From Azolla caroliniana (Eukaryota > Plantae > Polypodiophyta): a DNA stretch of 64,000 bases. The notes under the pieces are model-generated. The model was not told where the DNA came from. It made no database searches and was given only the letters and a program-made list of their open reading frames with translations. The stretch is from positions 16,244,001-16,308,000 of the forward strand of contig JBHGNT010000011.1 of the NCBI GenBank assembly GCA_043228905.1, in the 5' to 3' direction. Below are positions 1,861-59,230 of this stretch, in pieces. Position 1 is the stretch's first letter. Each line of letters opens with the position of its first letter. The position numbers were made by a program, and so were the translations under genes.

Positions 1861-1871
1861 TCCTTTGCGAT

Positions 1872-31417: not shown

Positions 31418-34400
31418 TCAGGTTGATTCAGGTTCTGTATCACCCCGTGCTTCAGCTTCATAATTTCCACCCCAATCAATAGACTGCAAAGGCATAATAT
31501 GGTAAACTCGGGAGGAATGCTGCTCAGCATCGCCCATCATATGATCCTGCATAAATTCGATGCCGTCCATTCGTGTGTGTTGCATGGTGGGGAAAGAAGA
31601 AGTTCCTACAGATAATAGAGTGGGATGTTTACCAGCAGAGACTGCTTCATCACTTCCCACACTTTTCTGATTGTCTGTGAAAAAAGTTCCTACTACAACC
31701 TAAGAGAAACATAAAAAAAATACCCAGTTGTTAGCAGACTTATAGAAAATTAATTAAACAGGCCTTACAGCTACTGTTGTTGCACCTGTACAGGACTCGC
31801 TGCCATAAGAAGGCCTGCAACCCCCCCACCCATAACTCGACCATCTGGGCCTGCCAAAGACACACTTAATCCTCCAGTGCGGCTGCGTGTGCCACCACAT
31901 TCAGTAAGAAGAAACGAGCCTGACAAGGACAGAATCTCAAAATGACCCTGCCGTAAACAGTAGATAAGTGTTTCCTCAGAAAGACGTTTGCAAGCTTCTT
32001 TTCATTCCTTAAGAGATACAAATGTAAATGAGATAAGGCAGCCTCAGAGAAGAATGAAATTGAACCATATTACAGCAGACCCATGAGTTCCTACATAATT
32101 TCATTTCCGTTTCAAGAAAATATCTAATGAATCAGGAATTAAACCATACATGATGAAAAGGGCAATTTCAAAACAAAAGGAATGATTAAAAAAAAGACTT
32201 AATCTAGTAAATAGTAGCATAGTCACTAGTGTAATAGGAACAGAGACAGAAAAAACGAGTTTCAAAGTTTCCGAACTTGGGCATCTTGTATTTCATTAAC
32301 CTCTAATGTTACAGTGTGGTTGAAGCAGCAATTAAACCAAAAGATTCTGCAGGTGACAAGTGCAAACCTCATATGTAACAGCACCACCAGAGACTCCAGG
32401 GTGACGAAGTGTTGCATTTGAAATGGCTCCATTAGCTGACAGTATACACACAGCCCAGGGTCCCTGGCTTGTAAAAGTTATGATCCTTGTTGACACATCC
32501 TGAAACCATGTAATTATTCAATTCTAAGATAACAATCTGGAAATGTAAAAAATCTACAATAAACTTTGAACCATGTAAGAAAGCAACTTTAACCAATACA
32601 GAGAGAAAACACAACTGAAGCATGGCCTTAATAAAACCAGTCAACTGACATGATTTCAGCTCACTGATAAATTACCTCAAACGGGAATAACAAAAAAAGT
32701 TTAAAAGGTTGATATCTTGTATTTGTGAGTATCTGCTTCTGATCACTCGACATTGACACTTTTAAGATCAGAAGGATAAGGAATCATAAAATTCTAGAAC
32801 ACAGCTAGTTATGGCTCTTTGTGTAATTTTTCCATATGGAGATTCTACCATTATCATTCCCAAATTTACTCACATGGATTTCATGAGGCAGTAGCTCTAC
32901 TGGTTTTTAACTTTAACTGCTATATTGTCAAGATTATAATATTTCTGTTCATTTATAATTTAGCAATATATCTGCACTTTATTCACTACTAATTCTTCAT
33001 CCTGGCATTCAATTCCAACGTCAATGTGAAAGAAATCATAGCTCTCCTGCATCAATTTTTAAGACATTGAGTGATATTCAACTATACTGTCAAGAATTCT
33101 AATATTTCTGTTCATTTATAACTTAGCAATATTCACTACTGCTTCTTCATCTTTCCATTCCCATCAATGTCAAAGAAATTAATACCTCTCAGCATTACTT
33201 GTTAAGAAATCATAGCTCTCCTGCATCAATTTTTAAGACATTGAGTGATATTCAACTATACTGTCAAGAATTCTAATATTTCTGTTCATTTATAACTTAG
33301 CAATATTCACTACTGCTTCTTCATCTTTCCATTCCCATCAATGTCAAAGAAATTAATACCTCTCAGCATTACTTGTTAAGAAATCATAGCTCTCCTGCAT
33401 CAATTTTTAAGACATTGAGTGATATTCAACTATACTGTCAAGAATTCTAATATTTCTGTTCATTTATAACTTAGCAATATTCACTACTGCTTCTTCATCT
33501 TTCCATTCCCATCAATGTCAAAGAAATTAATACCTCTCAGCATTACTTGTTAAGAAATCATAGCTCTCCTGCATCAATTTTTAAGACATTGAGTGATATT
33601 CAACTATACTGTCAAGAATTCTAATATTTCTGTTCATTTATAACTTAGCAATATTCACTACTGCTTCTTCATCTTTCCATTCCCATCAATCTCAAAGAAA
33701 TTAATACCTCTCAGCATTACTTGTTAAGACATGAATGATATTCTGACCTGCATTTACTGTTAAGAACTCAAGACATTTGGTTTTTTAGTTTATCTCTGAT
33801 ATTCTGTCAAGATTCTAGGTTGTGTTCATTTATGAATTAGCACTAGGTGCACTCTATTTACTAGAGTTTCTTCATCCTCCCATTCCCATCAATTCCAAAG
33901 TCAATGTCAAAGAAATTAATACCTCTCCTGCATTAATTGTTAAGACATGTGGGGTGAATTTTTGACCTGCAGCTCCTGTAAAGCACAAAAATACTCTTTT
34001 TTGTAAACGTTATTTCATGCATATTACAAAGATGCAAAGCACTAGGTCACATGACCGCAACGAGTATAGGAAAAGCACTCTCTCCTCAATTGTAAATCAC
34101 AAAAACGTTTTACCCATAAACCATTGTGGGGGCATAGGCCAAGACAATAACCAGAGTTTAGGGATGGCCGTTTCTTTCAGGTTTATTTTGTGTGGATAAA
34201 ACCAACAATCAATGCCCTTCATGTCAGTATAGGACCATGCGAACGAGGTTTTTTCTGTTTCTGCTTGTCTTTCTTGTTTACAGCAACATTCCCGAGCATT
34301 ACAGGCCTAGTGTACATACCAAGGCTTTTCAGCAGTCCAGCTCCTTGCAATTTTGTTGAAGTCTTTGGCTGTATCACTTCCTAGCCCATAAACATTTCTG

Positions 34401-37400: not shown

Positions 37401-39110
37401 ACCCAACAAAATGGCAATGTATAAGAATTTCTACAAAAACCATAAAAGATTTTCTAAGTGATATGCACAAGAAGCCCCTGTGAAGGGCTTTGATATCATT
37501 CTGCAATTTTCACCCTGCTTTGTAAACAACATTGACAAACATCCCTAAACTCAACAGAAGTCGTGTGGGCATCCTTAAGCACCACAAGACGAACTAGACG
37601 ATGCCTACCATACATTATTGTAGCGCATTCTACTCTCCTTCCCTTTTGCATCTCTTTCCTTGCCCTTTTTCATATTTCTTAATCTCCTTTGCCCAGAAAA
37701 ATCTTTTTTTTCCAATCATCCCATCGTGCCTAAAGATGCCAAACAATGAAGCTTACAGTTTTGAAAGATTCCAAAGTAATTTTGTCACATGTTTCCCATC
37801 TTCGCATCATACCAAAAGATATAAATTAATATATTCCACAATGCATTGGGAAACTCTTGTCATGGATACAAAAGCATTTGCTACAATTTGTATCTCATGA
37901 GTGGCACAATACTTAAGTGATAAATATGTGATGCAAAGAGCAAACCCTTGTTGTAATCCTAGTATTTTACATTACACCCTACAGGCTAAAATAACAAGCT
38001 TTCATGTTCCAAAAGCTGAGAACCTCAACATAACTAATAAAAACATGTCCATGTAAATTTGATACGATTTCCTAAAATCCCGTTTGCTGTGCTGGGGCAG
38101 GCAGTTCAAGAGAGCTAGTTCAGGAATCAAAATTTTGTAAGAGGCTTTGGCCAAAATAATCATAAGTTTCATTATAATATATAAATCTATATGGGAAGTC
38201 CTTGCTCAATAATAGAAAATGAAACGTGCAGCTGCACCCTCTGCTCGGTAACCTCAAAATTCTGTGAAGCTATGGACATGAACTTCGGCAGATGCGATCT
38301 ACATAAAAAGTTAGTTGAAAAACTAACTTGAACGCATTTGGGAAATTAAACAAACCTGACAGACACTACTAAACTTGAAGGGAAATAAATAAATCTGGAA
38401 TGAGGTTGCATATTGAGTAAATATATTGTTAAAGGAATCCTTATTGAAACCCATCATAGACACAAGAGAAGAAATGTACCTAATGCTAAAAGCTGAGCCT
38501 TTTTTCCAGAGCTGAAGTTCTTCTTCTTCAAAAAAGAGGATGCAGAGAGCAGTCGAGGTGACTGTGGGATGAGGATGGACACTCCATTTGCATCTTTGGC
38601 ATACTTTCGGGGCCTTCCCCTCTTCCTCTTGGCAGGCTCCAAGGAGGAGGGAGAGCGGTCTCCTCCGAAATCGCTCATTACAAGGCCCGAGTTGCCGGCT
38701 CCAGCCCCCTCTCCCTCCCTGAAGAAAGAAGAGGAAGATGTGTTGTTAGAGTTAGGGTTAGTGATGTTGATGTTGAAGTCAGATGCGGAGGTGACCGGGT
38801 CAGAGTTAAGGTTAGGGGTAGAATTTAGATTGGATAAGGTGCGGATGTGGCCATGGCTATGGTTATGGCCATGGCGCATAGCAGTGGGGGCATGGAGCAT
38901 ATTCATAGAAGCCCCTCGAAGGATATGAAAGCCTGACCCTTCCAATCGCTCCTCCTGCTCCTCCTGCTGATGATGCTGATGCTGATGCTGCTGCTGCTGC
39001 TGCTGCTGGTGGAGGTGGTGATGGAAGCTATTATAGGATCCACCTCCAAAAGGAGGACCCCGAGGGGAGGGGCTTATATGACTAGCAGCAGAGTCGCGGA
39101 CTTCTTCCAT
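31418..39110 (-). CDS. AHL: AT-hook motif nuclear-localized protein (AT-hook + PPC/DUF296; intron-containing clade B), 5 exons
   Basis: Exons 39110-38480 (KRKRGRPRKY), 33975-33923 (GAAGQKFTPHVLTINAGE), 32499-32368 (DVSTRI..AVCILSANGAISNATLR), 31947-31786 (GHFEILSLSGSF..RTGGLSVSLAGPDGRVMGGGVAG), 31699-31418 (VVVGTF..*); all GT-AG and in phase. Confidence 0.95.
33031..33726. repeat. 174-bp tandem repeat, 4 near-identical copies (plus diverged flanking copies to ~32885 and ~33950), in AHL intron 2
   Basis: AGAAATCATAGCTCTCCTGC recurs at 33031, 33205, 33379 and 33553. Confidence 0.97.
35140..36180 (+). pseudogene. Degenerate LINE reverse-transcriptase remnant in AHL intron 1
   Basis: ILLYADNFVLFS (YADD-like)..MQQLLDVLDTFC..KTKMM..FKYLGI; boundaries approximate. 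Confidence 0.75.
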
Positions 39111-39139
39111 GCATGCATGTGATACCCAACAACTGCAAA

Positions 39140-39171
<32 letters not shown>

Positions 39172-39814
39172 CCCCTTTGCTTCTGAGAAATCTGCAGCGA
39201 CCTTTTCTGTTTCTTCGGGGAATAAACTCTTATCTCTATCTCTACTTGTATTTCTACGTTGCTGCTTCTGAGAAATTTGCAGCAGCAGAGGCTTCTTATT
39301 CTTCAATTCAAGGAATACTCTCTCTGTGTGTGTCTCTCTCTCTTCTTTCTTCTTTCTTCTTTCTTCTTCTCAGATATGAGATGAGGGTGCGGGCAAATTC
39401 TTTCTTCTTCTCTTCTGCAGGATGCCAAAAGCAGGGAAGAGAAGGGGGGAACAGGGTTTTTAGTTGGAGGGGGGGAGAGACGGCGTGTTTGAACTCACAC
39501 ACACACACATAAACAGTCTCTCCTCTGCACTATACTGAGTACTCTACTCTACTGTCTCCCCTGCTCTCTCTCTCTGCTGCTCCCCTGCTCCTTTTGGTTT
39601 TTCTCCATTGACTTAACAACAGAGTGTGTGTGTGTGTGTGTACACACCACCTCATCCCCCAACACATAATACACACACAACACTCTTCTCTTTCTTTGCA
39701 AGGGCATGTGCTTTGGTATGAGAGAGAGAGAGAGAGAGAGAGAGACTAAAGTGGCATCTATGGCCAGATGGATTTAGCTCTGAGAGAGAGAGAGAGAGAG
39801 TAAAGTGGCATTTA

Positions 39815-39893
39815 TGCTCAGATGGATGTAGCTCAGTTGGTAAGGTTGCCCAATAGAGACCAGGTGGTCATGGGTTCAACCTCTACATTTCAC
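39815..39893 (+). mobile_element. Short tRNA-derived retro-copy/SINE head
   Basis: Box A TAGCTCAGTTGG and box B GGTTCAACC, flanked by an 11-bp direct repeat AGTGGCAT(T/C)TA (39804-39814, 39894-39904). Confidence 0.55.
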
Positions 39894-40043
39894 AGTGGCA
39901 TCTAGTCAAATAGAGATATATATGTAGTATATAATAGAGAGGTGAGAAAATTGGGTTCCAAACCCAAGTAAGGACGCAGTGCTTGTAGTGCTATCAACTT
40001 ACCACTAGGGTAAGCTAATTACGATAAAAAGAGAGAGAGACTA

Positions 40044-40077
<34 letters not shown>

Positions 40078-40174
40078 TGTTCTCTTTGCAAGGGCTGTGT
40101 TGTTTTGCCTCACTCCATGCATAGTTTTGTGTGTGTGAACAGTTCTAGCAATCTGAGAGAGAGAGAGAGGGTAC

Positions 40175-41215
40175 CATCATTTAGTAGAGAGCATTGTAAT
40201 TCTTTGCAAAAAGAGTTGCTTGTGTCTTCTCGGTTATTATGTTGGCCAAGAAAGGAGAGATTGTGCTCTCAATTTAATCGTTTGTTTCGTTTGGGGGTCA
40301 AAGAGGTGGGAGATATAGTTGAGGCTCCATCTCAAAGAATTTTGGAGTTTGCTTAAGCACAACAATTATTATGTATTCCGCCTAATTATGGGTTTATTTG
40401 GCAACAACTACAAAATATTGCATTGATGCAAGGTCCCTTACCTCTACAAACAAGAGAACAATCATGGCTTGATTGGTGTTTAAAGGGTCAAACATCGTTG
40501 TTACAAGTGACTACTAATCTTTTGTATCATTGCTCTGTTGAGTCTCTTGGATGGTTATCATCTAAGGCTGAAGAAGAATGGAGATTACACAAGTCAGATC
40601 ATGGTTGGTGGCAGATCTTACAACGTAGTTGGCATTCTAAATTGCCACTTGTAGCAAAGGTCTTCATTTGGAGAGTTTTGATTGGAGGTTTGCCTTTAGG
40701 ATTAGCTCTAAAGCGTCATGGATTAGCAACAAGTAATTGTTTCTTTTGCACTGTTCAAATGGAAGATAATACTCATCGATTTATACAATGTCCGATTGCT
40801 TGTCAAATTTGGAGTTACATTTCTCAAATTTGGCAAGTTTTATATCAGTGTTATTTGACACCTAGACAATGGGTGTTTGCACAATTTACATAGGTTGACC
40901 CAAAATTAGAGATGGAGATAGTTTTTCAATTTCTGAGATATTGGGGATTACTTCATAATTGGAATATGCGCAACACTTTTGCATTCGATGGTCGACATGG
41001 AGTGAAAGCATAGCTACGAAAGTTGAAGGGAGTACTAATGTGGCAATTTTCTTTATTGGAGCAAGTGGAAATTCTTTCCTCGGTGGAGTGTTCGTCTTGC
41101 CTATTGGCAATTCAACATGTTCCACTACCCATGTACTATAGTGTAGTTAGTGGGTGACCATACTCCATTGTCACACCTATTGTAAGTAGTGTTTTTTACA
41201 CACATTTATTAATAT
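40175..41215 (+). pseudogene. 5'-truncated LINE 3' fragment with zf-RVT domain
   Basis: WHSKLPLVAKVFIWRVLIGGLPLG..CFFC..EDNTHRFIQCPIACQIW; sits between two copies of a ~100-bp segment (~40060-40157 and ~41255-41385). Confidence 0.8.
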
Positions 41216-44200
41216 AATTGTGTGTTTTCACCAGAGAGAGAGAGAGAGAGAGTGTGTGTGTGTGTGTGAATTGTTCTCTTTGCAATGGACATGTTGTTTT
41301 GCCTCTCTCCATGCATAGTTTTGTTTGTTTGTTTGTTTGTTTGTTTGTTTGTGTGTGTGTGTGTGAACAGTTCTAGCCATCTAAGCTTGTGTATGTCATT
41401 CATGTACTCGTGATCTGATTATACACGTTCGTGCCTCGGCCTTAGGCACTTTGAAACAACATTACACACAAATATGTGCCTTTTGTGACAAAGAAAATGA
41501 CAAAACATTTTGGGAACCTTTTGTGCCTTTTGTCTCGCAAAAGTATAATGACCAAAGTGAATTTAGTCATTTATGCAAATCAAAGACATGCCTTGGTATG
41601 CGTCATATCTCCCTTTGGCATATGATTGAATAGTTTATTTTCAATTGTACTCCCACACCTCAATTACTAGATGGAACAAGCTCAAGGATAGACATTTGAT
41701 TTCAACACCTAATGGGGCTCTATCTACGTAAGCAACCAAGACGTCTTATTGGATATTGGAATAAACAAAAGAATCCATCAAGGGTGCATAGCTAAGTAGT
41801 AGAGCAATTGACTGCACTTCGATAGGTCATAAGTTCAATCATGGTTGCTTACGTAGAGCCCCGTTCGGTGTTGAATACATGGATTGCAAGCCCTGAACCC
41901 CATACACCTAACGGGGCTCTATGTAACCAAGAAGTTCTACGTAAGCGTATGATACACTTACTATTGACAAGAAGTTTTATTAGATATTGGAATAAACAAA
42001 AGAACCCATCAAGGGTGCATAACTAAGTAGTAAAACAATCGGCTGCACTCCGATAGGTCTAAAGTTCAATCTTGGTTGCGCCCTAAAGCAAGAAGAGTAG
42101 GGATTACCTCCAAGAACACTTACATCTTGAGATTATTAATTGCAAGTTTTTACACACGAACATGCATATGCCTTATGTGTTGAATGTTTCAAATCTAACA
42201 TGATATGAATACTATCATATCAATAACAAGTCTTATTGGATATTGGAATAAACAAAAGAACCAATCATGGGTGCATAGCTCAGTGATAGAGCAATTGGTT
42301 TCAGTCCGATAGGTCATCAGTTCTATCATGGTTGCGCCCTAAAGCAAGAAGAGTAGGAATTACCTCCAACAACACTTATACCCTAAGATTATTAATTGCA
42401 AATCTTTGCACACAAATATGTGTATGCCTTATGTGTCAAATGTTTCAGATATAAGATGATACGAATACTATCGGTAAGAAGTCTTATTAGAGATTGGAAT
42501 AAACAAAAGAATCCATCAAGGATGCATAGCTCAATGGTACAACAATCGGCTTTGTAGTTCGATAGGTCACCGATTCAATCTTGGGCGGTAAGAAGTCTTA
42601 TTAGAGATTTGAATAAATAAAAGAATCCATCAAGGGTGCATAGCTCAGTGGTACAACAATCGGCTTTGTAGTCTGATAGGCTTTGCGCCCTAAAGCAAGA
42701 AGAGTAGGGATTACCTCCAAGAACACTTACATTCTAAAATTATTCATTGCAAATCTTTGCACACGAACATGTGTATGCCTTATGTGTCCAATGTTTCAAA
42801 TATAACATGATACGAATACTATTGGCAAGAAGTATTGTTGGATATTGAAATTAAACAAAAGAATCCATCAAGGGTGCATAACTTAGTGGTAGAGTAATCG
42901 GATGCAGTCCGATAGGTCATCAATTCAATCATGGTTGCGCCCTAGAACAAGAAGAGTAGGTATTACCTTTAACAACACTTACATCCTAAGAATAAAAATT
43001 GCAAATTGTTACACACAAACATGCATATGCCTTATGTGCCGAATGTTTCAAATCTAAGATGATATGAATATTATCGATAAGACATCTTGGAATAAACAAA
43101 AGAATTGATCATGGGTGCATAACTCAGTGGTAGAGCAATCAGTTGCAGTCTGATAGGTCATAAGTTCAATCTCTTTTGTGCCTTAAAGCAAGAAGAGTAT
43201 AGATTACCTCCAACAACACCTAAGATTATTAATTTCAAATATTTGCACACGAACATGTGTATCCCTTATGTATCAAATATAACATGATACGAATACTATT
43301 GGCAAGAATCTAGAATCCATCAAGGGTGTAGAGCAGGGATTACCTTTAACAACACTTACATCCTAAGAATATAAATTGCAAATTTTACACACAAACATGC
43401 ATATGCCTTATGTGCCGAATGTTTCAAATCTAAGATGATATGAATATTATCGGTAAGACATCTTATTGGATATTGGAATAAACAAAAGAATTGATCATGG
43501 GTGCATAACTCAGTGGTAGAGCAATCGGTTGTAGTCTGATAGGTCATAAGTTCAATCTTTCTTGTGCCTTAAAGCAAGAAGAGTATAGATTACCTCCAAC
43601 AACACCTAAGATTATTAATTTCAAATATTTGCACACGAACATGCGTATCCCTTATGTGTCAAATATAACATGATACGAATACTATTGGCAAGAATCTAGA
43701 ATCCATCAAGGGTGCATAACTCAGTGGTAGAGCAATCGGTTGTAGTCCGATACGTTATCACTTCAATCCTGGCTGCACCCTAAAATAAGAAGAGTAGGGA
43801 TTACCTTTAACAACACTTACATGCTAAGAATATTAATTGCAAATTGTTAAACACAAACATGCATATACCTTATGTGTCGAATGTTTCAAAACTAAGATGA
43901 TATGAATACTATCAGTAAGACTTCTTATTGGATATTGGAATAAACAAAGGAAGCAATCATGGGTTCCTAGCTCAGTGGGAGAGCAATCGGTGGCAGTCCG
44001 ATAGGTCATTAGTTCAATCCTGCTTGTGCCCTAAAGCAAGAAGAGTATAGATTACTTCCAACAACACTAACAACCTGAGATTATTAATTTCAAATATTTG
44101 CACACGAACGTGTGTATCCCTTATGTGCCAAGAATCTTGTTGGATATTGGCATTAAACAAAAGAGTCCATCAAGGGTGCATAGCTCAGTCGTGCATGTGC

Positions 44201-46322
44201 CCTAAAGCAAGAAGAGTATAGATTACTTCCAACAACACTAACAACCTGAGATTATTAATTTCAAATATTTGCACACGAACATGTGTATCCCTTATGTGCC
44301 AAGAATCTTGTTGGATATTGGCATTAAACAAAAGAATCCATCAAGGGTGCATAGCTCAGTCGTGCAACAATCAGTTGCAATCCGATAGGTCATCACTTCA
44401 ATCCTAGTTGCGCCCTAAAACAAGAAGAGTAGGGATTACCTTTAATAACACATACATCCTAAGAATATCAATTGCAAATTGTTACAACAAACATGCATAT
44501 GCCTTATGTGTTGAATATTTCAAATCTAAGATGATATGAATGCTATCGGTAAGATGTCTTATTGGATATTGGAATAAACAAAAGATTCACCACTCATGGG
44601 TGCATAGCTCAATGGTAGAGCAATCCGTTGCAGTTCGATAGGTCATCAAGTCAGTCCTGCTTGTGCCCTAAAGCAAGAAGAGTATATATAACTGCAACAA
44701 CACTCACAACCTGAGATTATAATTTCAAAGCTTTGCACACGAATATGTGTATCCCTTATGTGTCAAATATAACATGATATGAATACTACTGGCAAGAATC
44801 TTGTTGGATATTGGAATTAAACAAAAGAATCCATGAAGGGTGCATAGCTCAATGGTAGAGCAATCAACTTCAATCCGATAGGTCATCAGCTAAACCCTGG
44901 TTGCGCCCTAATATAAGAAGAGTAGGGATTACCTTTAACAACACTTACATCCTAAGAATATTAATTGCAAATTGTTACACACAAACATGCATATGCCTTA
45001 TGTCTCGAATGTTTCAAATCTAAGATGATATGAATGCTATCGGTAAGATGTCTTCTTGGATATTGGAATAAACAAAAGATTCACCACTCATGGGTGCGTA
45101 GCTCATTGGTAGAGCGATCCGTTGCAGTTCGATAGGTCATGCTTGTGCCCTAAAGAAAGAAGAGTATAGATAACCTGAAAAGTCATGCTTGTGCCCTAAA
45201 GCAAGAAGAGTATAGATAACCTGAAAAACACTCACAACCTGAGATTATAATTTCAAAGCTTTGCACATGAATATGTGTATCCCTTATGTGTCAAATATAA
45301 CATGATATGAATACTACTAGCAAGAATATTGTTGGATATTGGAATTAAACTAAAGAATCCATCAAAGGTGCATAACTCAATCGTAGAGCAATAGGTTGTA
45401 GTCCGATAGGTGCATAACTCAATCCTGGTTGCGCCAAAAAATAAGAAGAGTAGGCATTACCTTTAATAACACATACATCGTAAGAATATTAATTGCAAAT
45501 TCTTACAACAAATATGCATATGCCTTATGTGTCGAATGTTTCAAATCTAAGATGATATGAATGGTATCGGTAAGATGTCTTATTGGATATTGGAATAAAC
45601 AAAAGATTCACCATTCATGGGTGCATAGCTCAATGGTAGATCAATCCGTTGCAGTTCGATAGGTCATCAATTCAATCATGCTTGTGCCCTAAAGCAAGAA
45701 CTGTATAGATAACCTGCAACAACACTCACAACTTGAGATTATTAATTTCAAATCTTTGCACAGGAACATGCGTATCCCTTATGTGTCAAATATAACATGA
45801 TACAAATACTATTGGCAAGAATCTTGTTGGATATTGGAATTAAATAAAAGAGTCCATGAAGGGTGCATAGCTCAATGGTAGAGAGATCGGTTGCAGTCCA
45901 ATAGTTCATCAGTTCAATACTGGTTGCGCCATAAAACAAGAAGAGTAGGCATTACCTTTAATAACACATACATCCTAAGAAGATTATTTGCAAATTGTTA
46001 CAACAAACATGCATATGCCTTAGGTATCGAATGTTTCAAATCTAAGATGATATGAATACTATCAGCATGACATATTCTTGGATATTGGAATAAACTAAAG
46101 AACCAATCATGGGGGCATAGCTCAATGGTGGAGCAATCGATTGCAGTCTGATAGGCCATTAATTCAATACTACTTGTGCCCTAAAGCAAGAAGAGTATAG
46201 ATAACCTGCAACAACATTCACAACCTGAGATTATTAATTTCAAATCTTTGCACTCGAACATGCGTATCCCTTACATGTCAAATATAACATGATATGAATA
46301 CTATTGGCAAAGAATCTATCAA

Positions 46323-46394
46323 GGGTGCATAGCTCAGTGGTAGAGCAATCAGCTGCAGTCCGATAGGTCATCAGTTCAATCCTGGTTGCGCCCT
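46323..46394 (+). tRNA. tRNA-Cys(GCA), best-preserved copy of the array (functional or recent pseudogene)
   Basis: Acceptor GGGTGCA/TGCGCCC plus U73 discriminator, D-stem GCTC/GAGC, anticodon loop CT-GCA-GT (one A-C mismatch in stem), T-arm ATCAG-TTCAATC-CTGGT. Confidence 0.7.
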
Positions 46395-47309
46395 AAAAGA
46401 AGAAGAGTACGGATTACCTTGAACAACACTTACATCCTAAGAATATTAATTGCAAATTGTTATACACAAACATGCGTATGCCTTATGTGTCGAATGTTTC
46501 AAATCTAAGATGATATGCCTTATGTGTTGAATGTTTCAAATCTAAGATGATATGAATAGTATCGGTAAACACAAAACCAATCATGGGTGCATAGCTCAAT
46601 GGTGGAGCAATCGGTTGCAGTCCGATAGGTCATCATTATAGATTAGCTCCAATAACACTCACAACCTGAGATTATTAATTTCAAATATTTGCACACGAAC
46701 ATGCAAATCCCTTATGTGTCAAATATAAAATGATATGAATACTATTGGCAAAAAATTGTTGGATATTCGAATTATACAAAAGACTCTATCAAGGGTGCAT
46801 AACGAAGTGGTAGAGCAATCAGCTGTAATCCGATAGGTCATTACTTCAATACTGGTTGCACCCTAAAACAAGAAGAGTAGGGATTACCTTTAACAACATT
46901 TACATCGTAAGAATATTAATTGCAAATTGTTACACACAAAAATGCATATGTCTTATATTTCAAATCTAAGATGATATCAATACTATCAGTAACAAACATT
47001 CTAAGATGATATTAATACTATCGGTAAGACGTCTTACTGGATAATGGAATAAACAAGAATGAATAATGGGTGCATAGCTTAGTGGTAGAGCAATCGGTTG
47101 TAGTCCAATAGGTCAACAGTTCAATACAACTTGTGCCCTAAAGCAAGAAGAATATAGATAACCTCCAACAACACTCACAGCCCGAGACTATTAATTTCAA
47201 AATTGTGCACACGAACATGCGTATCTGTTATGTGTCAAATATAACATAATACGAATACTATTAACAAGATTCTTGTTGGATATTGGAATTAAACAAAAGA
47301 ATCCACCAA

Positions 47310-47381
47310 GGGTGCATAACTAAGTGGTAGAGCAATCAGCTGCAATATGATAGGTCATCCGTTCGATCCTGGTTGCGCCCT
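47310..47381 (+). tRNA. tRNA-Cys(GCA)-like copy, probably pseudogene; last unit before the LTR insertion
   Basis: Acceptor stem intact, canonical GTTCGATC T-loop, GCA anticodon; D and anticodon stems have mismatches. Confidence 0.45.
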
Positions 47382-47407
47382 AAAACAAGGAGAGTAGGGA
47401 TTACCTT

Positions 47408-50400
47408 TGTTGAGCGGCAAGCTCAACTGGAGTCGGATCGGCTGAATAAGCTTGAGCCAGCAAGCGAGACGGATCGGTAAGCCATGAGCAACCGAGCTGG
47501 CAAACAACAGAGCCGATTAGCTGGATCCAGACGGTAACCGGAGGCCTAATATTAGTTTAGACTACTAGGAAGTTATAGTCTCGTAGTAAGTGTCAGATGC
47601 TCGTGTGAGCATTGAAGTATGCGGTACTTCTGTCAGTCCCACGAGGACTTGTATAAATAGTGCTACTGAGCACAGTTGTAAATACAGAGTGTCTATATCA
47701 TTTTTGAATATAGCTTTTACGTTTTGCTCTCTCTGTCTCTCCCATGTACTCTGTGTATTCTCTGCTTTTACGTTTACATGGTATCAGAGCATGAGGGTTG
47801 AGAACCTCTGCAACCGACAAACGCTTGAAAGCAAACCCTAACAGGTCGAAAGAACAGCAGACAGAGAAGTGGTGGATAGAGGGATGGCTAGCTCGCTCCC
47901 TGTGGAGAAACTCGACAGATCCAACTACGCATCTTGGTCGTACAAGATGCACCAATACCTGCTTGGGCATGGCTACTGGAGTTTCGTCGAAGGAGCCAAC
48001 GAAACAACACCTGATGCGGCACATAAGGACTTCCTAGTGTGGGAACAATCGGCAAGCAGAGTGATGTATTGCTTCGCGTCCAGTGTTGGAGACCAGCTGC
48101 TGAGCCACATTCGAGACGCCAAGACGCTGAAGGAGGCTTGGGGAAACCTGAAGAAGGTTTTCGCCGCAAGCACTACAGCCCGGAAGTTGCAACTCCGACA
48201 GGAGTTAAGCAATGTCCAACAGAAGGACATGTCGGTGGTGAGTTACACGGCCCAGATCAAAGAGATCTGTGACTCGCTTGCCTCTATCAACGTTACCGTA
48301 GAGGAAGACGAGATGGTACAGGTTTGTCTTGGGGGCCTGTCGTCTAAGTTCAGAGCGTTCCGAACGGCGGTATGTACAAGGGAGAATACGCCATCATTTT
48401 TCGACTTACATTCGATGCTCCTTGTAGAGGAGAACCATGCCGGTGCGTCAACTAACGCACCCATTGACAGCCGGATGCTGTACACGGAAGCGGATCGGTC
48501 CTGTGGGCGTGGTGGACGAGGTGGGTCGGCACGCAATGGAGGCGGCCGGCAAGACCAGGAACAAAGGCACAAAGAACGTGCCAACAATAGTTCCGGACCC
48601 TCCGGGAGCAGGGGGAGTCATGGCAGCACCGGAAGACGGCAAGAGAAGACTGCAACGGAATGCTGGTACTGTGGCAAAAAGGGCCACAGAGAGAGCGAGT
48701 ACTGGAGAAAACGCGCCGATTCGGACAAATCTGGATCCGGCAAGGCCGGCAAGGATGGTCGGCAAAGCTCGCACTACGCGAAGGTATCGGGAGGATCCAA
48801 GAACGGTAACGGGCCAGCCTTGGTGATGAAGCACGAGGCGAACTCGATGAAGAAGATCACTTCCAAATCAGAGGAAGTGTGGTATGTTGATTCCGGTGCA
48901 TCGAACCACATGACGAACCACAAAGAGTGGTTCTCCTTTTTGGAGAAACCGGATCAACCAGGAGTAGTCGAAACCGGAGACGACACTCCTCACCCAATTG
49001 TGCACGTCGGAGAAGTCCCTTTGAGCCACCTCAGACAGAAGGGGAAGCTGATGAACGTATTACACGTTCCGACAATCACGAAGAACCTGGTGTCGGTCGG
49101 ACAGATCGTCGACCAAGGGATGCAGGTGTGGTTTACGCACCTCGGGTGCTTCATCGAGGAAGAGGGCCAGATTATTGCACAAGGGCGCAAAGACGGGAGG
49201 ATGTTTATCCTCGACACCAATGACGTCGGCACCGCTCTGTTTGCAAAAGGATAGAAGGTCGAATCGGACATCGACCTGTGGCACAAGTGGATAGGGCACA
49301 TCAATTACTGGAGGCTTCAAGACCTGCAAGCGAAACAAGTTGTTTTCGGTTTGCCAAAGTTCAGCGACCGGAAGGCCCAAGTATGTGAAGCCTGCCAGCT
49401 CGGGAAGCAACACCGGCTTCCATTCCCTACCGAACGTAATCGGAGCCGTAACAAGCTCGACCTTATCCATTTGGATGTGTGGGGACCGACACAGAATGTT
49501 AGTCTCGGCAGGAGTCGATATTTCGTCTCCTTCATCGACGACTATACGCGGCACACATGGATCTACCTCATTGAGCGGAAGAGTGAAGTCTTCGAGTGTT
49601 TCCGGAGTCTCCAAAGCATGGTGGAACGGGAATCAGAGAGGAAGATCAAATGCCTGCGGTCGGATGGCGGAAAAGAATACTTTTCCGGCCAATTCAACAG
49701 TTATCTGCAGCAAAAGGGAATTCAGCGAGAGTTCAGTTGTAGATACACACAGTAACAGAACGGTGTTGCCGAGAGGAAGAACCGGTTGCTTATTGATGCG
49801 GTAAGGGCAATGCTGGAGGAGAAGAGCATGCCCAAATTCTACTGAGCGGAGGCAGTCCGAACGGTTGTCTACATCTAGAACCGGATCAGTGACAAGGTGT
49901 CAGCTCACGAGCTGTATTTCGGATGCAAGCCGAATTTAAGACACCTTAAGATCTTCGGCAGCATTGCATATGTGCATGTACCGGATGAGAAGAGGAGGAA
50001 GCTGGATGCAAAATCGGAAAAATGCATCCTAATCGGCTATGCTCAAGAGCAAAAGGGTTATAAGTATTATAACCCTCGGACAAAGCAGGTCCGAGTTAGT
50101 CGAGATGTCAAGTTCGATGAATCAGCATTGTGGTACTCCTTACCGGCCCCGACTTCCGAATCCGACCTGATGCCGGACGATGAGGCTAGTGAGCTTGAAC
50201 CTGCCCATGTAGATGATGATGAAGCGTGGACTCAGGATGAGAGTTCGGAATCGTTTCGGTTGAGCGGGCCGAACGAGAGACTGAGTCAATCTGACCAGTC
50301 CGATGAGGAACCGACGAGTAGTGGAGACTCTACCGTGCTCTCCTCGCGCAAGGAACCGAGGAGACGGTTCACGCGCAAAGAGAAAGGGAAGAAAAAGATG

Positions 50401-50535
50401 CCGGAATTCGAAACTGACAACGATGAGTCGGATCGGTGTGCATTTGACTCCGGCAAGGAGAAAGGCGGATCTTCGGCAACGAAGACCGAACCGACCAAGA
50501 AAGGCCTTAAACCGTGTAATGGTGAGTTACGCCGG
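47408..50535 (+). mobile_element. Ty1/Copia LTR retrotransposon A, 5' part (LTR, gag, PR, IN), decayed and interrupted by a Gypsy insertion before RT
   Basis: LTR TG..CA 47408-47778, PBS TGGTATCAGAGC (tRNA-iMet) 47779-47790, gag from ATG 47884, degenerate knuckle CWYCGKKGHRESEY, WYVDSGAS protease, IHLDVWGP..FIDD..LRSDGGKEY integrase; in-frame stops at 49252, 49753, ~49843, ~49876. Confidence 0.93.
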
Positions 50536-52347
50536 TGTCGTGAAGAAAACCGTCCACGAGCGGAATCGGTGCGCCGGAGCATAGGAACCGGCTCTTCATG
50601 CATGTACGCCTTACGTTGTACATAGAAGATCCTAGGTAGGAAGACTCGGTAGGTAAGAAGTTAATAGGAAACGGCTCCCTTCTTGCCTATAAAAGGAGGG
50701 AGACGAGGAGGAGGAAGGGATCGCGGAGAGTCGAGGACGAAGTGCTGTCGGTTTGTGGGCGAAGGCTTCTCTCTCTCTCTGGCTCGCAAACTCCATAGCT
50801 TCTTTCTGTGCAGGTTTCGTGAGGCTCGCGCTGCTCTGAGGAATGCCCGAGTGCTTCCGGCAGCACCTCTAACCCTCCTTCCTTTTTGCGCGTTTGCGAA
50901 CAGGCATCGGCATCTGTTCGCCGGCCTGTTCGGTTGTAACTGACTTCGTGTTTTGATTGTTTGTCTTTGTTAATACATACATACATTCGTGTCTCTCTGT
51001 GTCGCTGTCCCACTCGCGTCTTTGTGTCGAAGGGCCGTGTCCCTGTGAATCTACGCTCGCACGCAGTGGGTCTCTTCTCCTTTCTCTCTTGCTCTTCGGT
51101 ACAGGACCCCCGAGGTCCCGCCTCATTCCACGCATCAGCGAGGAATACCTCGACATCTTGGTGAACCCGACGTGAAGGAGGCGGCAGAAGAGCAGAAGAT
51201 GAAAGGGTCGGATCTTGCGGAGGCCATGGCTTCGGCCGTGGATCGGATATTGAGCGCACGCGAGGGCTCCGGCGCCCTCGACAGAGACATTGAGGCAATC
51301 GTCGGTACGATCGGCCGGTTCAGCGGAAGGGATGCCACGAAGTATTTGGCGTCCTATGGGGCAGAAATGTTGATGCGGGACATTCCGGAAGAGAGGCGTC
51401 TTGCCGGGTTTCCTCGAGTGGCGATGCCGAGCATCCATGCGGAGGTGCTCGAGGTGCGGGCGGAGAGCCGTACCTGGGAGGAGTTCGAAGGTCGACTCCT
51501 AGAAAAATACGGGCTGGACGATGCGCTCCGGCTTTCGAAACGGGAATTCATGGAGTGGGTGGAGTCCCCCGGCAAGGGGAGAAACGCATCGACACTCCTC
51601 CGGGAGTTCGAAGAACGCTTTGCGCGCCTTTCGGCGCTTGACCGAACCGTTCTGGATACGAGCCGGGTCCTATTGTTCGTCAAGTCGGTGGATGAGCGGG
51701 ACCGGGATGAAGTCGGCTCCTTGCTGGAAACCGAAGACGGGCTGACGACCGACTGGGCTGTGGTTAAGAGAGTCTGTGGCCGTTTCGACAAACGACGAGA
51801 ATGGGCTGATAACGGGGCGGCCGGTGCGGGCTCTGTCACAACAAGGAGGCTTGAACTGGCACCGCAAGGGCGAAGGGAAGAAACCCGGGAATGGCTCGGA
51901 ACCGGTCCGGCTTTGACCGGCATGGTCAGTGGCTCGTCCGGAGGAGCAGCGCTGGAGGAGTTGACGCGGGCGATAAAGGATCTCCAGATCGCCCAGACTC
52001 GAAGGGAAGGCGGTGAACCGGCTCGTGACCGACGGCCGGCAGCAGGGAACAGGTGCATGTGGTGCGACGAGGTCGGCCACATCCGGAAGGATTGCGGCGA
52101 TTTCGCAGAAGCGTTGAGGAACCGGGTGGTGTACCTGTGGGAAGGCCGGGTGCACGCCGGCGACACCAGAAGGGCCCTAAACCGAAACGACGGACGAGGA
52201 GGTATGAAGAGACTGATGGAAGAGGCAGCGGCCCGACACGTGGAGGCCATCCACTACTCGGCGTTGGCCGACATTCGGGTCGGGGGCAGCGAGGCCCGAA
52301 AGGAGGGCAAAGACGGATTCTGGTCGGCAATGCTGGAAGGTCTTGCC

Positions 52348-52434
52348 TGTTGAAGACAAGGCCGTGTCGATGCGGAAGATCAGATAGCATTCGATTGGGG
52401 TTTGATACCTGCGTATGACAGTTTGCAAGATCGT

Positions 52435-52477
<43 letters not shown>

Positions 52478-55400
52478 GCACAAAAATGACTTTCTCTATT
52501 CAATAGAAACAATAATACAACCAACCTTATGAAAAGGTTACTAGGTCACTTTATATAGTGACAGACTTAGGGCAACTACCATTTATGCTAATTACACAAA
52601 TGGCCCAAACTTGAGCTATACAAAGGGATAGTGTGAATACGTCCATTATACACTTGTATTCGACACTCCCCCGTAATGGGCGTATACATGAGTTATCTAA
52701 GATTACAGGTATAAACCTAGGTTCTCGGACATATCAGTTTTGTTCGAGTCGGCAGGGTCCAAAGGCAGAAGACCGAACTGGTCGGGTCGGAAGAGTTGAA
52801 ACCGATCGTTAAGGAACTGATGTCGGTTGTCGGAAACCATCCTGCGCTGTGTCCGGCTCTAACCGGACTGGTTTGTCGTTACGCCCATCTGATGCCGAAG
52901 GGACCGAAAGCGGTCTGCCGAAAGACACTTGGTCATTCCATCTGCGACATTGTCGGTTGTGGATATTTTCTCTAGACCGATTTTCCCTGAAATGACGCAG
53001 TCCCGAACGAAGTGATATCGAACGTCGATATGTTTGGAGGCGTTGTGGTGAACCGGATTTTTCGACAAGGCAACAACACCTTGACTGTCGCTATAGACAA
53101 CTGGGGCCGAGTCATGGTCGACTTGTCGAAACGTGTGCGCCAGCCGGCCGAGCCACAAAGCTTCTTTTGCAGCGTCGGACGCAGCTACATATTCTGCTTC
53201 GGTCGTTGAGGTCGCTGTGCACTCCTGAAGTTTCGACTTCCACGAAATTGCTCCATTGCCGAATTTGAAGCAGTATCCGGTTGTTGATTTCCGACTGTCT
53301 ATACAGCCGGCGAAGTCCGAGTCGGTGTAACCGACTACGCCTGAGGTTGAGTTCGGACCGAAAAGAATGCCGTGGTCTTTTGTGCCAGCCAGATATTTGA
53401 ACACATGCTTGACTGCGTTCCAATGCGATCGGCCAGGATTGTGCATAAATCTGCTAACGACTCCTACGGCATGAGAAATATCAGGCCGTGTCGCGACCAT
53501 CAGGTACATAAGGGAGCCGACTGCCGGTGCATACGGTACCGACTTCATATCTTCCCCCTCCGGACCGGATGTCGGGCAGTCTCGCTGAGAGAGCCGAAGA
53601 TTCATGGGGAGCGGGGTTGAAGCAGATTTGGCTGATTGCATGTTGAAGCGTTCCAAGACACGTCCGATATAGTCGGTCTGAGACAAAAAAAGATGTCGTT
53701 TATCGCGATGCCGACTAATCTTCATGCCAAGGATGTGTCGTGCCGGACCGAGGTCCTTCATGGAAAACTTCAACCGCAGTTGCCGAATGAGATCGGCAAG
53801 TTCGCCCGCGTGGCGTCCAGAAATTAGCATGTCGTCCACGTAAATGATGAGGAAGATGGGTGATCCATCTTGAGCTGTGTTGGTAAAAAGACAATGGTCC
53901 TCATCGCTTTTTGAGAAGCCGATCGATTGGATGAAGTCGTCGAACTTCTTGTACCATTGTCGCGGTGCCTGTTTGAGGCCGTATAGACTCTTCTTGAGTC
54001 GGCAGACTAGATGTTCTTGGCCAGTTGCCACGAAGCCTTTTGGCTGTTCCATATAAATTTCCTCTTCAAGATCACCATGGAGGAAGGCTGTTTTGACATC
54101 TAGCTGAATCAGCTCCAAGTTGTCGGCTGCCACTACGCCGAGTAGAAAACGAAGGGTTGTCATTTTCACCACTGGTGAAAAAATCTCGTCGAAGTCGACG
54201 CCATATTCTTGTCGGAAGCCCTTTGCAACTAATCTGGCCTTGTACTTTGGGGTGGTCGAATCAGACGTCTCTTTTAGTCGATAAACCCACTTGCAAGGAA
54301 GAGCACGTCGATTCTTAGGTAGTTCGACCAGATCCCAAGTCTTGTTTGCCCGAATGGAGTGCATTTCCGACTCCATCGCCAGATGCCAGGTGGCTGAATC
54401 GACAGATGTCGATGCTTCTTCGTAAGACGTCGGTTCGCCGGCGTCGGTGAAGAAAATTCCAGGAGAATACCTCTCCGGAGGTTGCGACAGTCTCTCGGAT
54501 CGTCGAGGTATGATTGGACTGGTCGCATCGGGTATCGAGGTCGGATGGTCCGAAAGCGAATTATTCGGCTGTGCCGAGTCAGAGTTGTCCGAGTCGGTGG
54601 TGTAAGGTTCAGCTACCCGTGAAGCTGACCGTGTGTTAAGAGCGGGGCCTTCTTGAAGGGTCGGCACATCGGAAAATGTTACCCTTCGGACTTCGATCGG
54701 TTTTTCGACTGATGGATTCATAGCCGACTCGTTGAACACAACGTCCGAACTTCGAAGGATTTGTCTGCGTTCGGGGTCCCAGAGTCGGTATCCCATTTCG
54801 CCGTCTGATCCATATCCAAGGAAAATGCATTTCCTGGACCGAGGTGCAAGTTTTCGGCGATCATCTTTCGGAATAAGGGCGTATGCCTCGCATCCGAAGA
54901 TCCTCAGCTTGTCGTAATTCGGCTTACTGCCGATCCATAGTTCCTGAGGAATTTGAAGTCCTAGAGGTCTGCTTGGCGACATATTGATTATGTGTACTGC
55001 CGTGAGTAGAGCCTCTGCCCAGAAGCCATCCGACAGTCCGGAGTGTTGGAGCATGGAAACTATCCGTTCTTGGATTGTCCGATTCATGCGTTCTGCAATC
55101 CCGTTTTGCTCCGGACTGTGTGGTGCCGTAAATTCACGTCGGATGCCGCGTTGTCGGCAGAATTTGACGAATTCTTCTGATTTGAACTCTCCCCCATTGT
55201 CGGTCCGAAAGCATTTCATTTTTCGGTCAGTTTGATTTTCTACCATAGCGAGCCAATCGGAGAAGATCGAGAAGACACGATCTTTGGTGCGAATTGGATA
55301 AGCCCACACCTTTCGAGTCGAATCGTCAATAAAACTGACGAAGTAAGAGGCACCGCCGAGAGACTGATGCGGCATTGGGCCACAGACGTCCGAGTGGACT

Positions 55401-57674: not shown

Positions 57675-57721
<47 letters not shown>

Positions 57722-57909: not shown

Positions 57910-59230
57910 TTGGCGGCGCACGGCTAAGGAAAGACGAAACTGACCGCGCTGAGAGACGGGTCCGGGAAATTACCGGGTGGAGCGATCCGGTCGAGGAGAA
58001 GACGGGCTTCGTAGAAGCCGCCTTCCGGAACTATGAGGCTCTGGTAGAAGACAAATGAGTGGGGAAAGCCGGAGCGGCCGGGCACTCACAACGGTACGAG
58101 ACCCGATTCGGGCAACGACGGAACGATGCCGGTGGGTCCAGCTCGCAAGATAACCCCAGGAAGGGCGGATACCGACTAGGGACGGAAATAGAAAGGACCA
58201 CGGACCTACGAAAGGTCCTAGAAGAACGGATCCTCGACAGCAAAGTGGAGGTATCATTACGGGAGGTGCTAGGGATCGCCAAGAAGGAGTTTCACGACTC
58301 CATTGTGGACTTGGTGAAACGGAAGAGGCTGTCGACGGAGACAGAACCGGAGAGACCGGTGGAGGTGCGGACGACGCACATCGACGACTCGGCGCTGGCA
58401 GATGAGTGGGCGGAGAGCCAGTATTCGAGGCCACACTGGGCCCGAGCGACCACGGAGACCCCGGTAAAGATCGGAGATGTTCAGGAACCGGTGGTGGCAC
58501 TGGTGGACCACGGTTCGGAAATAAACCTGATGTCCATGGACTTCTATAAGAAGGGAAAGTGGCTGATCAACACCAAGCACGGGTGGAAGATCCGGGTGGC
58601 GACGCGCGCCACCGAGGAACTGCACGGGGCCTGCCTGAACGTGCGTGTCAAGATCGGCGACGTCGAGATTGACCAGCACTTCTTCGTGCAGGAGACGTCC
58701 TCGCATCCGATCATATTAGGGGAACCGTACATCACAGCGGCACGAATGGAGACCAAGGTGCTGGACAACGGTTCGGCCTACGCGAGGGTCAAAAGCCAGG
58801 ACGGGCGCCATTCGGTTCAGTTTCTGACGGTGCGGCCAAACCACGAGAGAAACCGGGAATCCCTCGGTGGCGAGAACCGGGAGGATTTTTAGAGAGGGCT
58901 GCCAAGGCGTGGGGCCGAGACAGCCCGGACACTCGGGAAAACCCCCCGACTGTACGATAGAACCGAAACCGAAGGAACCCTGTACGATAGGTAGGAAGTT
59001 TTGCTTCTCCAACAACGGAGGGTGTATGATAGTCGGCATCGTTGGCCAAGAAAAGACAAGGGCGGAAGTGCGACTTCGAGCGTGCGGAGTTCTCGGCCCG
59101 GACGAGGAAATCAGCGGAGCTGTGGAGGTGGTCTCCTTTGACGACACCTTGGGAATGCTGAGGGAGGTAGCCGGAGAAGACCTTAACGAAGACCGGACGA
59201 AACCGGTATGTTCCAAAGAGATGTACGAAG

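What the first reader, a model, noticed from the sequence alone, without database searches (positions are those of the whole stretch)
41745..47407. Head-to-tail array of ~25 tRNA-Cys(GCA)-derived genes behaving like a satellite
Seen: a 72-nt cloverleaf recurs every ~240-255 bp on one strand for 5.7 kb (acceptor GGGTGCA/TGCGCCC, U73, consensus anticodon stem ATCGG/CCGAT fully paired, GCA anticodon). It is cut off by an LTR insertion, so it may be longer. Known: U73 plus GCA are the Cys identity elements, and tandem tRNA clusters exist in plants (Arabidopsis Ser-Tyr and Pro clusters). Inference: the anticodon stem differs from the usual plant tRNA-Cys yet stays paired, so the founder was a real, divergent tRNA-Cys that was amplified and is now decaying. 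The locus could be a tRNA dosage cluster, a tRF/siRNA source, a TFIIIC boundary between the gene-rich and transposon-rich blocks, or a nascent satellite/SINE. The ORF track does not show it.
Basis: partly seen in the sequence, partly recalled or inferred. Interest (0 to 1): 0.85.

Follow-up and report, generated by a model that had tools for sequence, protein, structure and literature searches.

The report
Decaying tRNA-Cys gene array in fern
This is a real run of 25 head-to-tail copies of a cysteine tRNA gene, arranged in alternating A/B pairs in what is likely a fern genome; every full-length copy carries damage and none has a normal stop signal, so it is likely a dead, methylated gene cluster turning into satellite DNA, a fairly ordinary relative of known plant tRNA clusters.

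Summary
Observation confirmed: 25 units at 41782-47407 (+): 19 full-length tRNA-Cys(GCA)-derived 72-mers, 5 partial copies and 1 stub, cut by a Copia LTR at 47408. Short-read contigs from three studies reproduce parts of it. The copies are unconstrained: 0 of 19 is fully intact, 14 of 19 lost a B-box invariant, changed stem pairs are mostly broken (65 vs 32), the tRNA varies more than its spacer, CG/CHG transitions dominate, and no copy has a T4 terminator. The founder was not unusual for its lineage: two other organisms carry the same anticodon arm. Contig depth suggests the spacer belongs to about this one array, while many near-identical tRNA-Cys copies lie elsewhere. Best reading (0.78): a tandem tRNA-Cys homocluster amplified by unequal crossing-over, methylated, now a pseudogene satellite. 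Dosage, TFIIIC-boundary and SINE readings are not supported; expression is untested. Tandem Cys clusters are published for Arabidopsis, pepper and a moss. The fern setting, dimer structure and full decay are modest additions. Interest 0.27.

The parts
41782..47407 (+). Tandem array of 25 tRNA-Cys(GCA)-derived units (19 full-length tRNA bodies, 5 partial, 1 stub), each followed by a related AT-rich spacer of up to about 200 bp
41782..42871 (+). Units 1-5: edge units lying outside both the A and B clades (likely the older monomeric layer)
   Evidence: tree; alignment
42872..47407 (+). Units 6-25: A/B dimer (about 490 bp) higher-order repeat, alternating strictly apart from one extra B unit (44174)
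   Evidence: lag-1 distance 0.224, lag-2 0.124; A clade bootstrap 89, B clade 99
46323..46394 (+). Best-preserved copy: GCA, all invariant positions kept, one A.C mismatch in the anticodon stem, 56 bits; no T4 run within 260 nt downstream
42269..42340 (+). Copy with anticodon mutated to TCA (ARAGORN mislabels it SeC); also lost G19, R57, C61
47068..47139 (+). One of five copies with anticodon mutated to GTA (ARAGORN mislabels it Tyr); T-stem has 3 mismatches
41701..41930 (.). Left-edge rearrangement: three copies of a 27-34 bp motif (41701-41734 +, 41842-41875 -, 41904-41930 +). The inverted one truncates unit 1 near its 3' end and ends in letters complementary to the tRNA T-stem (likely fold-back or template switch)
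47403..47407 (+). ACCTT, candidate target-site duplication; it lies inside the spacer of unit 25, and its partner is not in the window
47408..47778 (+). 5' LTR (TG...CA) of a high-copy Copia element that cuts the array; primer-binding site follows at 47779-47790 and gag-pol at 47842; no second LTR in the window
38454..39302 (-). Context: first coding exon of an AT-hook (AHL) gene starting about 2.5 kb from the array; closest named relatives are Adiantum proteins at 42-45% identity; spliced in the RNA-like run X12

Best explanation
This is a tandem array of 25 damaged tRNA-Cys(GCA) gene copies that likely arose from one ordinary fern tRNA gene by unequal crossing-over, was likely silenced by DNA methylation, and is likely now a non-functional pseudogene satellite. 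Shown: the unit (tRNA plus a shared spacer that keeps a gene-like AT-rich/CAA 5' flank), the A/B dimer, small recent block duplications and deletions, loss of structure without compensation, a CG/CHG-biased mutation spectrum, and no T4 terminator. Inferred order: (1) a piece holding one tRNA-Cys gene but no terminator was duplicated head-to-tail; (2) two neighbouring monomers diverged into A and B (spacers 24% apart); (3) the A-B pair became the unit of unequal exchange and expanded about ten-fold, leaving older monomers at the left edge; (4) CG/CHG methylation silenced the block and methyl-C deamination eroded the GC-rich tRNA bodies faster than the AT-rich spacers; (5) a Copia element and further nested LTR elements inserted at the right end. 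Cys decoding is inferred to come from the many near-identical copies elsewhere in the genome.
For: Dimer: lag-1 distance 0.224 vs lag-2 0.124; the tree splits alternate units into two clades (bootstrap 89 and 99); spacer A-A 0.111, B-B 0.101, A-B 0.239. Youngest pairs are block duplicates: u07/u09 2.8%, u06/u08 5.8%, u11/u12 5.9%. No constraint: 0 of 19 full copies has all stems paired and all invariants; 65 of 97 changed stem pairs are broken; variable columns are 43 of 84 in stems, 29 of 60 in loops and 104 of 338 in spacers; 14 of 19 lost a B-box invariant; 7 of 19 lost GCA. Methylation signature: transition rates 0.13-0.20 at CG/CHG sites vs 0.02-0.05 at CHH; variable columns 35 of 40 CG/CHG vs 66 of 137 CHH, p=8e-6. 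This matches the CG+CHG, low-CHH methylome reported for Ceratopteris (PMC9477723, passages). No T4 within 60 nt 3' of any of 19 copies, and only 4 T4 runs in the array, whereas Arabidopsis clustered tDNAs keep T tracts of median about 5 (PMC7544208). Depth in run X2: spacer 33-59x single copy vs 33-62x simulated from this array alone; tRNA body 252-299x vs 25-46x. Same anticodon arm in organisms C and D with other flanks.
Against: Methylation and silence are inferred from sequence only; no bisulfite, tRNA-seq or Pol III data could be examined. The copy at 46323 has one mismatch and an intact A and B box, and 5 of 19 copies keep a full B box, so low or cell-specific transcription is possible, as shown for the Arabidopsis SYY cluster (PMC12308677, abstract) and for one boundary gene of the Arabidopsis Cys cluster (PMC10701932). 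A residual excess of variability in the tRNA remains after stratifying by context (odds ratio 1.47, p=0.09). Mean depth over the whole array at 90% likeness (10.5x) exceeds the simulated 2.1-2.6x by more than the extra tRNA bodies obviously explain, so more related units may exist. The tool warns that summed contig depth is no copy number, and the tRNA-versus-spacer contrast rests on one run.
Confidence: 0.78

Rival explanations
1. A silenced but conditionally active tRNA-Cys cluster (dosage reserve), like the Arabidopsis SYY cluster; one or a few copies would still yield tRNA in particular cells.
For: The consensus is a complete cloverleaf. The copy at 46323 scores 56 bits with one mismatch. 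CAA lies directly upstream of 9 of 19 copies. Precedent: PMC12308677 (abstract).
Against: 0 of 19 intact, no T4 terminators, stems as variable as loops. The genome appears to hold 5-10 times more tRNA-Cys bodies elsewhere, with lower shares of the array's variant alleles, e.g. anticodon C>T in 12% of depth vs 7 of 23 window copies.
Confidence: 0.1
2. A source of small or read-through RNAs: without terminators, Pol III would run through several units, and RNase P/Z cuts would release tRFs or spacer RNAs, as in plant dicistronic tRNA-snoRNA genes (the latter recalled; the title is seen in a reference list).
For: Only 4 T4 runs in 5.7 kb on the + strand; 5 of 19 copies keep a full B box. Spacers are less variable than the tRNA bodies.
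Against: Spacers are unstructured: z = -0.69 and +0.18, consensus energy -3.9 kcal/mol with a positive covariation term. Rfam C/D-box hits are far below threshold (17-20 bits vs 43-50). The lower spacer variability is largely its lower CG/CHG content. No C>T over G>A strand bias in non-methylatable tRNA columns (4 of 15 vs 3 of 14).
Confidence: 0.04
3. A TFIIIC-bound boundary that would shield the AHL gene from the LTR block.
For: Position between an expressed gene and a nested LTR block; many B-box-like sites.
Against: B-box invariants are hit at least as often as the rest of the tRNA (21 of 133 site-copies vs 165 of 1368 overall; counted). Very high-copy repeats and a LINE fragment lie between the gene and the array (39505-41509), so the array is not at the repeat border.
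Confidence: 0.04
4. A tRNA-derived SINE (or other dispersed repeat) that was tandemly amplified here.
For: A tRNA head plus an unrelated body of about 180 bp is SINE-like in size; many tRNA-Cys-like copies exist elsewhere.
Against: No A-rich or simple-repeat tail and no target-site duplications between units. The 5' flank is shared between copies, as expected of DNA-level duplication. Spacer depth fits about this one array, whereas a SINE body would be as abundant as its head.
Confidence: 0.04

Closest known systems
Arabidopsis chromosome 5 tRNA-Cys(GCA) cluster (PMC10701932, first of 5 parts read; PMC7544208, abstract and first third of Results)
   Same: Same isotype, same-strand tandem units of tRNA plus spacer, units 84-94% alike, copy number changed by whole-unit gain and loss, methylated and largely silent, with a pseudogene at its edge.
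   Different: There 4-6 units of about 420 bp, and all four genes pass the tRNAscan-SE high-confidence filter and keep T tracts. Here 25 units of about 245 bp, an A/B dimer, no intact copy and no terminator.
Arabidopsis Ser-Tyr-Tyr (SYY) array (PMC2886086 abstract; PMC12308677 abstract)
   Same: Multi-gene repeat unit expanded by unequal crossing-over, with concerted evolution and neutral copy-number drift; heterochromatic.
   Different: SYY genes stay intact and are reactivated in root cap cells. Here the two members of the dimer are one isotype and are decaying.
tRNA-Ile/tRNA-Cys tandem clusters of the moss coded Cpu (26, 18 and 14 identical genes; PMC12652284, parts 1-2 of 4); pepper (5) and mouse (12) Cys homoclusters (PMC13437025, Table S3 summary sheet)
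   Same: Cys(GCA) genes repeatedly form tandem clusters of this size range.
   Different: Those are identical or annotated genes. No fern cluster appears in the summary sheet of that table (Azolla and fern have 0 hits in the file), and decayed arrays like this one would largely fail the high-confidence filter used in PMC12652284.
Satellite DNA with higher-order repeats, and plant satellites proposed to derive from tRNA genes (recalled, not read)
   Same: Divergent monomers amplified as a fixed multimer, older monomers at the edge, CG/CHG decay.
   Different: Here only about 25 units at apparently one locus, with the tRNA still recognisable.

Membership tests
Plant tDNA homocluster (at least 5 genes of one isotype within 5 kb; PMC13437025) | At least 5 same-isotype tRNA genes within 5 kb, same orientation | tested here: met
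   13 Rfam hits at or above the gathering score within 4.9 kb, all +; met only if pseudogenes are counted
Plant tDNA homocluster (at least 5 genes of one isotype within 5 kb; PMC13437025) | Flanks shared between copies (tandem DNA-level duplication) | tested here: met
   Spacers align across 24 units; 10-11% divergence within subtype
Functional tRNA-Cys(GCA) gene | Cloverleaf, GCA anticodon and U73 in the founder | tested here: met
   Majority consensus called tRNA-Cys(gca) by ARAGORN
Functional tRNA-Cys(GCA) gene | Intact stems and invariant nucleotides in individual copies | tested here: not met
   0 of 19 full-length copies; the best has one A.C mismatch
Functional tRNA-Cys(GCA) gene | Pol III terminator (T4 or longer) close downstream | tested here: not met
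   0 of 19 within 60 nt; longest run T3
Functional tRNA-Cys(GCA) gene | Purifying selection on the tRNA body relative to its flanks (PMC6130373, abstract) | tested here: not met
   Variable columns 72 of 144 in tRNA vs 104 of 338 in spacer; odds ratio 1.47 after context stratification
Functional tRNA-Cys(GCA) gene | Transcription and aminoacylation; tRNAscan-SE high-confidence score | not testable with these tools
   No tRNA-seq or raw RNA reads were offered; tRNAscan-SE is not available
Satellite DNA with higher-order repeat | Fixed multimer of divergent monomers repeated head to tail | tested here: met
   A/B alternation, lag test and tree
Satellite DNA with higher-order repeat | High copy number or long arrays | tested here: not met
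   Spacer depth is about 0.8-1.7 times that expected from this 25-unit array; one run, rough
Satellite DNA with higher-order repeat | Heterochromatic methylation | tested here: inconclusive
   CG/CHG transition excess is indirect; no methylome available
tRNA-derived SINE | 3' A-rich or simple-repeat tail and target-site duplications | tested here: not met
   None in the unit alignment
tRNA-derived SINE | Head and body dispersed together at high copy | tested here: not met
   tRNA body in 5-10-fold excess, spacer with no clear excess; indirect, no genome held
Dicistronic tRNA-snoRNA gene | C/D-box snoRNA directly 3' of the tRNA | tested here: not met
   Only sub-threshold Rfam hits, at the far end of the spacer; no conserved structure

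The most novel reading that the evidence does not exclude
Fern tRNA-Cys(GCA) genes are a recurrent seed of satellite DNA, and this locus catches the gene-to-satellite transition midway: a terminator-less tRNA unit that has already gained a higher-order dimer. Organism D holds its own amplified, variable tRNA-Cys family with shared but different flanks (33+16 contigs share a 5' flank, 21 a 3' flank, and one contig runs back onto the tRNA). If that family is tandem too, the same tRNA was amplified and killed in separate lineages, and raw fern tRNA gene counts in the thousands may be inflated by such arrays.
Probability: 0.3. Interest if true: 0.5.

Novelty: new member of a known kind. Interest (0 to 1): 0.27.

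Why it matters
As a single locus it matters little: tandem tRNA clusters, Cys clusters among them, are well described in plants. It is a clean example of the death phase of such a cluster, which surveys that keep only high-confidence genes filter out. It shows a tRNA gene array gaining a satellite-like dimer, and it warns that automatic annotation will call spurious SeC and Tyr tRNAs here. It would matter more if the amplified tRNA-Cys family seen in organism D proves to be an independent tandem array, or if copies with TCA or GTA anticodons turned out to be expressed.

Tried and rejected
Whole-genome search: no genome is held for this window, so dispersed copies and the far side of the LTR block could not be read directly; contigs of public runs were used instead. 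Array resuming after the LTR: no second LTR, no array sequence elsewhere in the window, and none of the 17 later ACCTT sites is followed by spacer. Expression: no RNA holder listed; the RNA-like run X12 covers the AHL exon but not the array, and nothing of X14 was laid; these blanks are no evidence either way. My idea that the founder's T-stem was already deaminated: the differences from the main forms in organisms C and D are C>T/G>A at CG/CHG sites, but about 90% of depth in X2 carries the array-type T-stem and organism C has a 54-nt contig with one difference from the best copy (carry-over within one study is not excluded), so I dropped it. My first reading of 10x depth as about 250 array units: simulation showed that unitig overlap and extra tRNA bodies explain much of it. 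Transcription-associated mutagenesis: no strand bias. Structured or snoRNA spacer: rejected. Homology of organism D's 3' flank to the spacer: 15 of 29 letters match in register by my hand count, p about 0.01 post hoc; inconclusive. MFE folds of five copies do not give cloverleaves, which is weak evidence since this is common for unmodified tRNAs (recalled). Earlier findings by sequence and by words: none. Literature: searches found no paper on a fern tRNA-Cys array or a decayed dimeric tDNA array; subscription journals and most supplements were not seen.
Full report
OBSERVATION. The sequence at 41.7-47.4 kb holds a head-to-tail repeat. A profile built from the copies finds 24 tRNA-like segments at 41782-47381, all on +, and nothing else in the 64 kb window at E below 3. 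A 25th unit at 43324 keeps only the first bases of the tRNA. Nineteen are full-length ungapped 72-mers, 2-14 differences from their majority consensus, and ARAGORN draws that consensus as tRNA-Cys(GCA) with two G.U pairs. Rfam gives 13 tRNA hits at or above the gathering score, best 56 bits, and 21 at E up to 10. ARAGORN copies, labelling one SeC and one Tyr because the anticodon has mutated; 12 of 19 keep GCA, 5 read GTA and 2 TCA. Twelve of 24 spacings fall in 238-256 bp; deletions and small duplications give the range 114-275. Nine DNA runs in four studies hold part of the array. The three I laid give contigs with 0-5 differences over 159-396 bases inside it, none spanning it; one of them may be the source sample.

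HOST AND CONTEXT. The neighbouring AT-hook gene exon has its closest named relatives in Adiantum at 42-45% (9 hits among 718 candidates), so the host is likely a fern. Left of the array lie that gene, then very high-copy repeats and a LINE fragment. Right of it a Copia 5' LTR starts at 47408, after ACCTT (43 contigs have loose ends at 47408). The element is followed by further nested LTR elements, its 3' LTR is not in the window, and the array does not resume. The left edge is a small fold-back rearrangement that truncates unit 1.

STRUCTURE. From unit 6 on, units alternate between two types. Mean distance is 0.224 between neighbours and 0.124 between next-but-one units. Spacers differ by 0.111 within A, 0.101 within B and 0.239 between them. 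A tree of all 25 units gives an A clade (bootstrap 89) and a B clade (99), with units 1-5 outside both (units 1, 8 and 12 were left out of the tRNA comparisons as truncated). The closest pairs are local block duplicates at 2.8-5.9%. This is the pattern expected from unequal crossing-over acting on a dimer, the mechanism proposed for the Arabidopsis SYY array (PMC2886086, abstract).

CONSTRAINT. None of 19 full-length copies has all stems paired and all invariant bases; the best (46323) has one A.C mismatch in the anticodon stem. Of 97 changed stem pairs, 65 are broken and 32 kept. Variable columns are 43 of 84 in stems, 29 of 60 in loops and 104 of 338 in spacers (9 A and 9 B units; tRNA vs spacer p=8e-5). 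Fourteen of 19 lost a B-box invariant (all). Functional tRNA genes show the opposite, a conserved body with variable flanks (PMC6130373, abstract). Transitions run at 0.13-0.20 at CG/CHG sites against 0.02-0.05 at CHH, and CG/CHG columns are variable in 35 of 40 cases against 66 of 137 for CHH. This fits CG and CHG methylation with little CHH, as reported for Ceratopteris (PMC9477723, passages). Stratifying by context shrinks the tRNA's excess variability to an odds ratio of 1.47, p=0.09, and there is no strand bias of the kind transcription would leave (unit 16 and the stubs left out). No copy has T4 within 60 nt downstream, and the whole array has four T4 runs; Arabidopsis clustered tDNAs keep T tracts of median about five (PMC7544208, first third of Results). 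CAA lies directly upstream of 9 of 19 copies, a gene-like feature shared through the spacer.

FOUNDER AND OTHER COPIES. I laid four runs on one unit at 80% likeness. Their main T-stems differ at two or three sites, but organism C also has a 54-nt contig one letter from the best copy. In run X2 (organism B, which holds the array), six contigs continue 3' of the tRNA with a T run and 20 have other 5' flanks by loose ends (some may be B-type units), which points to dispersed genes. Because summed contig depth is inflated by overlap, I simulated the graph from this array alone. Spacer depth observed in X2 (33-59 times single copy) matches the null (33-62); tRNA-body depth (252-299) exceeds it (25-46) five- to ten-fold. 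So the spacer family is about this one array, while many near-identical tRNA-Cys bodies lie elsewhere with lower shares of the array's variant alleles. Against this, mean depth over the whole array at 90% likeness is 10.5 times single copy against 2.1-2.6 simulated, more than the extra tRNA bodies clearly explain; the tool warns that depth is no copy number, and the contrast rests on one run. Organism D has its own family with shared flanks (33+16 contigs at the 5' side, 21 at the 3' side); whether it is tandem is unknown.

MECHANISM. Shown: unit anatomy, dimer, lack of constraint, mutation spectrum, missing terminator, LTR interruption. Inferred: duplication of a terminator-less piece around one ordinary tRNA-Cys gene, divergence of two monomers, about ten-fold expansion of the dimer by unequal exchange, methylation and silencing, decay, and later retrotransposon insertion (0.78). 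Rivals: conditionally active cluster (0.10), small or read-through RNA source (0.04; spacers unstructured), TFIIIC boundary (0.04) and tandem SINE (0.04). Expression was not testable.

COMPARISON. Tandem tRNA-Cys clusters are published for Arabidopsis (4-6 units; PMC10701932, first of five parts), the moss coded Cpu (Ile/Cys clusters of 26, 18 and 14 genes; PMC12652284, parts 1-2 of 4), pepper and mouse (PMC13437025, passages and the summary sheet of Table S3). A review describes homoclusters as a standing class in land plants (PMC13578239, passages). The SYY cluster shows that methylated clusters can be reactivated (PMC12308677, abstract). PMC9858662 (passages) held nothing specific to ferns. 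The locus works like these clusters in origin but fails the tests for functional genes; it meets the structural test for a higher-order satellite but not its copy number. Searches found no report of a fern tRNA-Cys array or of a decayed dimeric one; closed journals and unseen supplements may hold one.

VERDICT. Real, well explained, and a new member of a known kind. Interest 0.27. The boldest open reading is that fern tRNA-Cys genes repeatedly seed satellites (probability 0.3, interest 0.5 if true).

Noticed in passing
run X11 (organism D), laid on window:46283-46442: A second amplified tRNA-Cys family: 199 contigs laid, dozens sharing one 5' flank and one 3' flank unlike this array's; summed depth is about 1000 times that of single contigs. 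Tandem or dispersed is unknown.
   Followed up: partly
window 42269-42340 and 44838-44909: Two copies have a TCA anticodon and five have GTA on a Cys body; automatic annotation would call false SeC/suppressor and Tyr tRNAs.
   Followed up: yes
window 41701-41930: Three copies of a 27-34 bp motif, one inverted, at the left edge of the array, with microhomology to the tRNA T-stem; likely a template-switch scar.
   Followed up: partly
window 47408-64000: Nested LTR block: Copia gag-pol (47842 onward) interrupted near 50.6 kb, a second element's gag-like ORF (51049-52353), and a minus-strand Copia (52859-56962) duplicated at 97.7% identity in 59231-64000.
   Followed up: no
window 33030-33729: Four near-identical 174-bp tandem copies (99% matches) inside a more diverged repeat region 32901-33986.
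   Followed up: no
window 25878-29462: A 433-bp direct repeat (94%) flanks a GC-rich 3 kb stretch with ORFs lacking Pfam hits (27071-27787, 28226-28684); possibly a non-autonomous LTR element.
   Followed up: no
window 1444-1935, 21566-21898, 38454-39302: Host gene exons: a protein kinase, a pentapeptide-repeat protein and an AT-hook (AHL) protein, all on the minus strand.
   Followed up: partly
window 18639-18668: Five exact TTAGGG repeats at an internal position.
   Followed up: no
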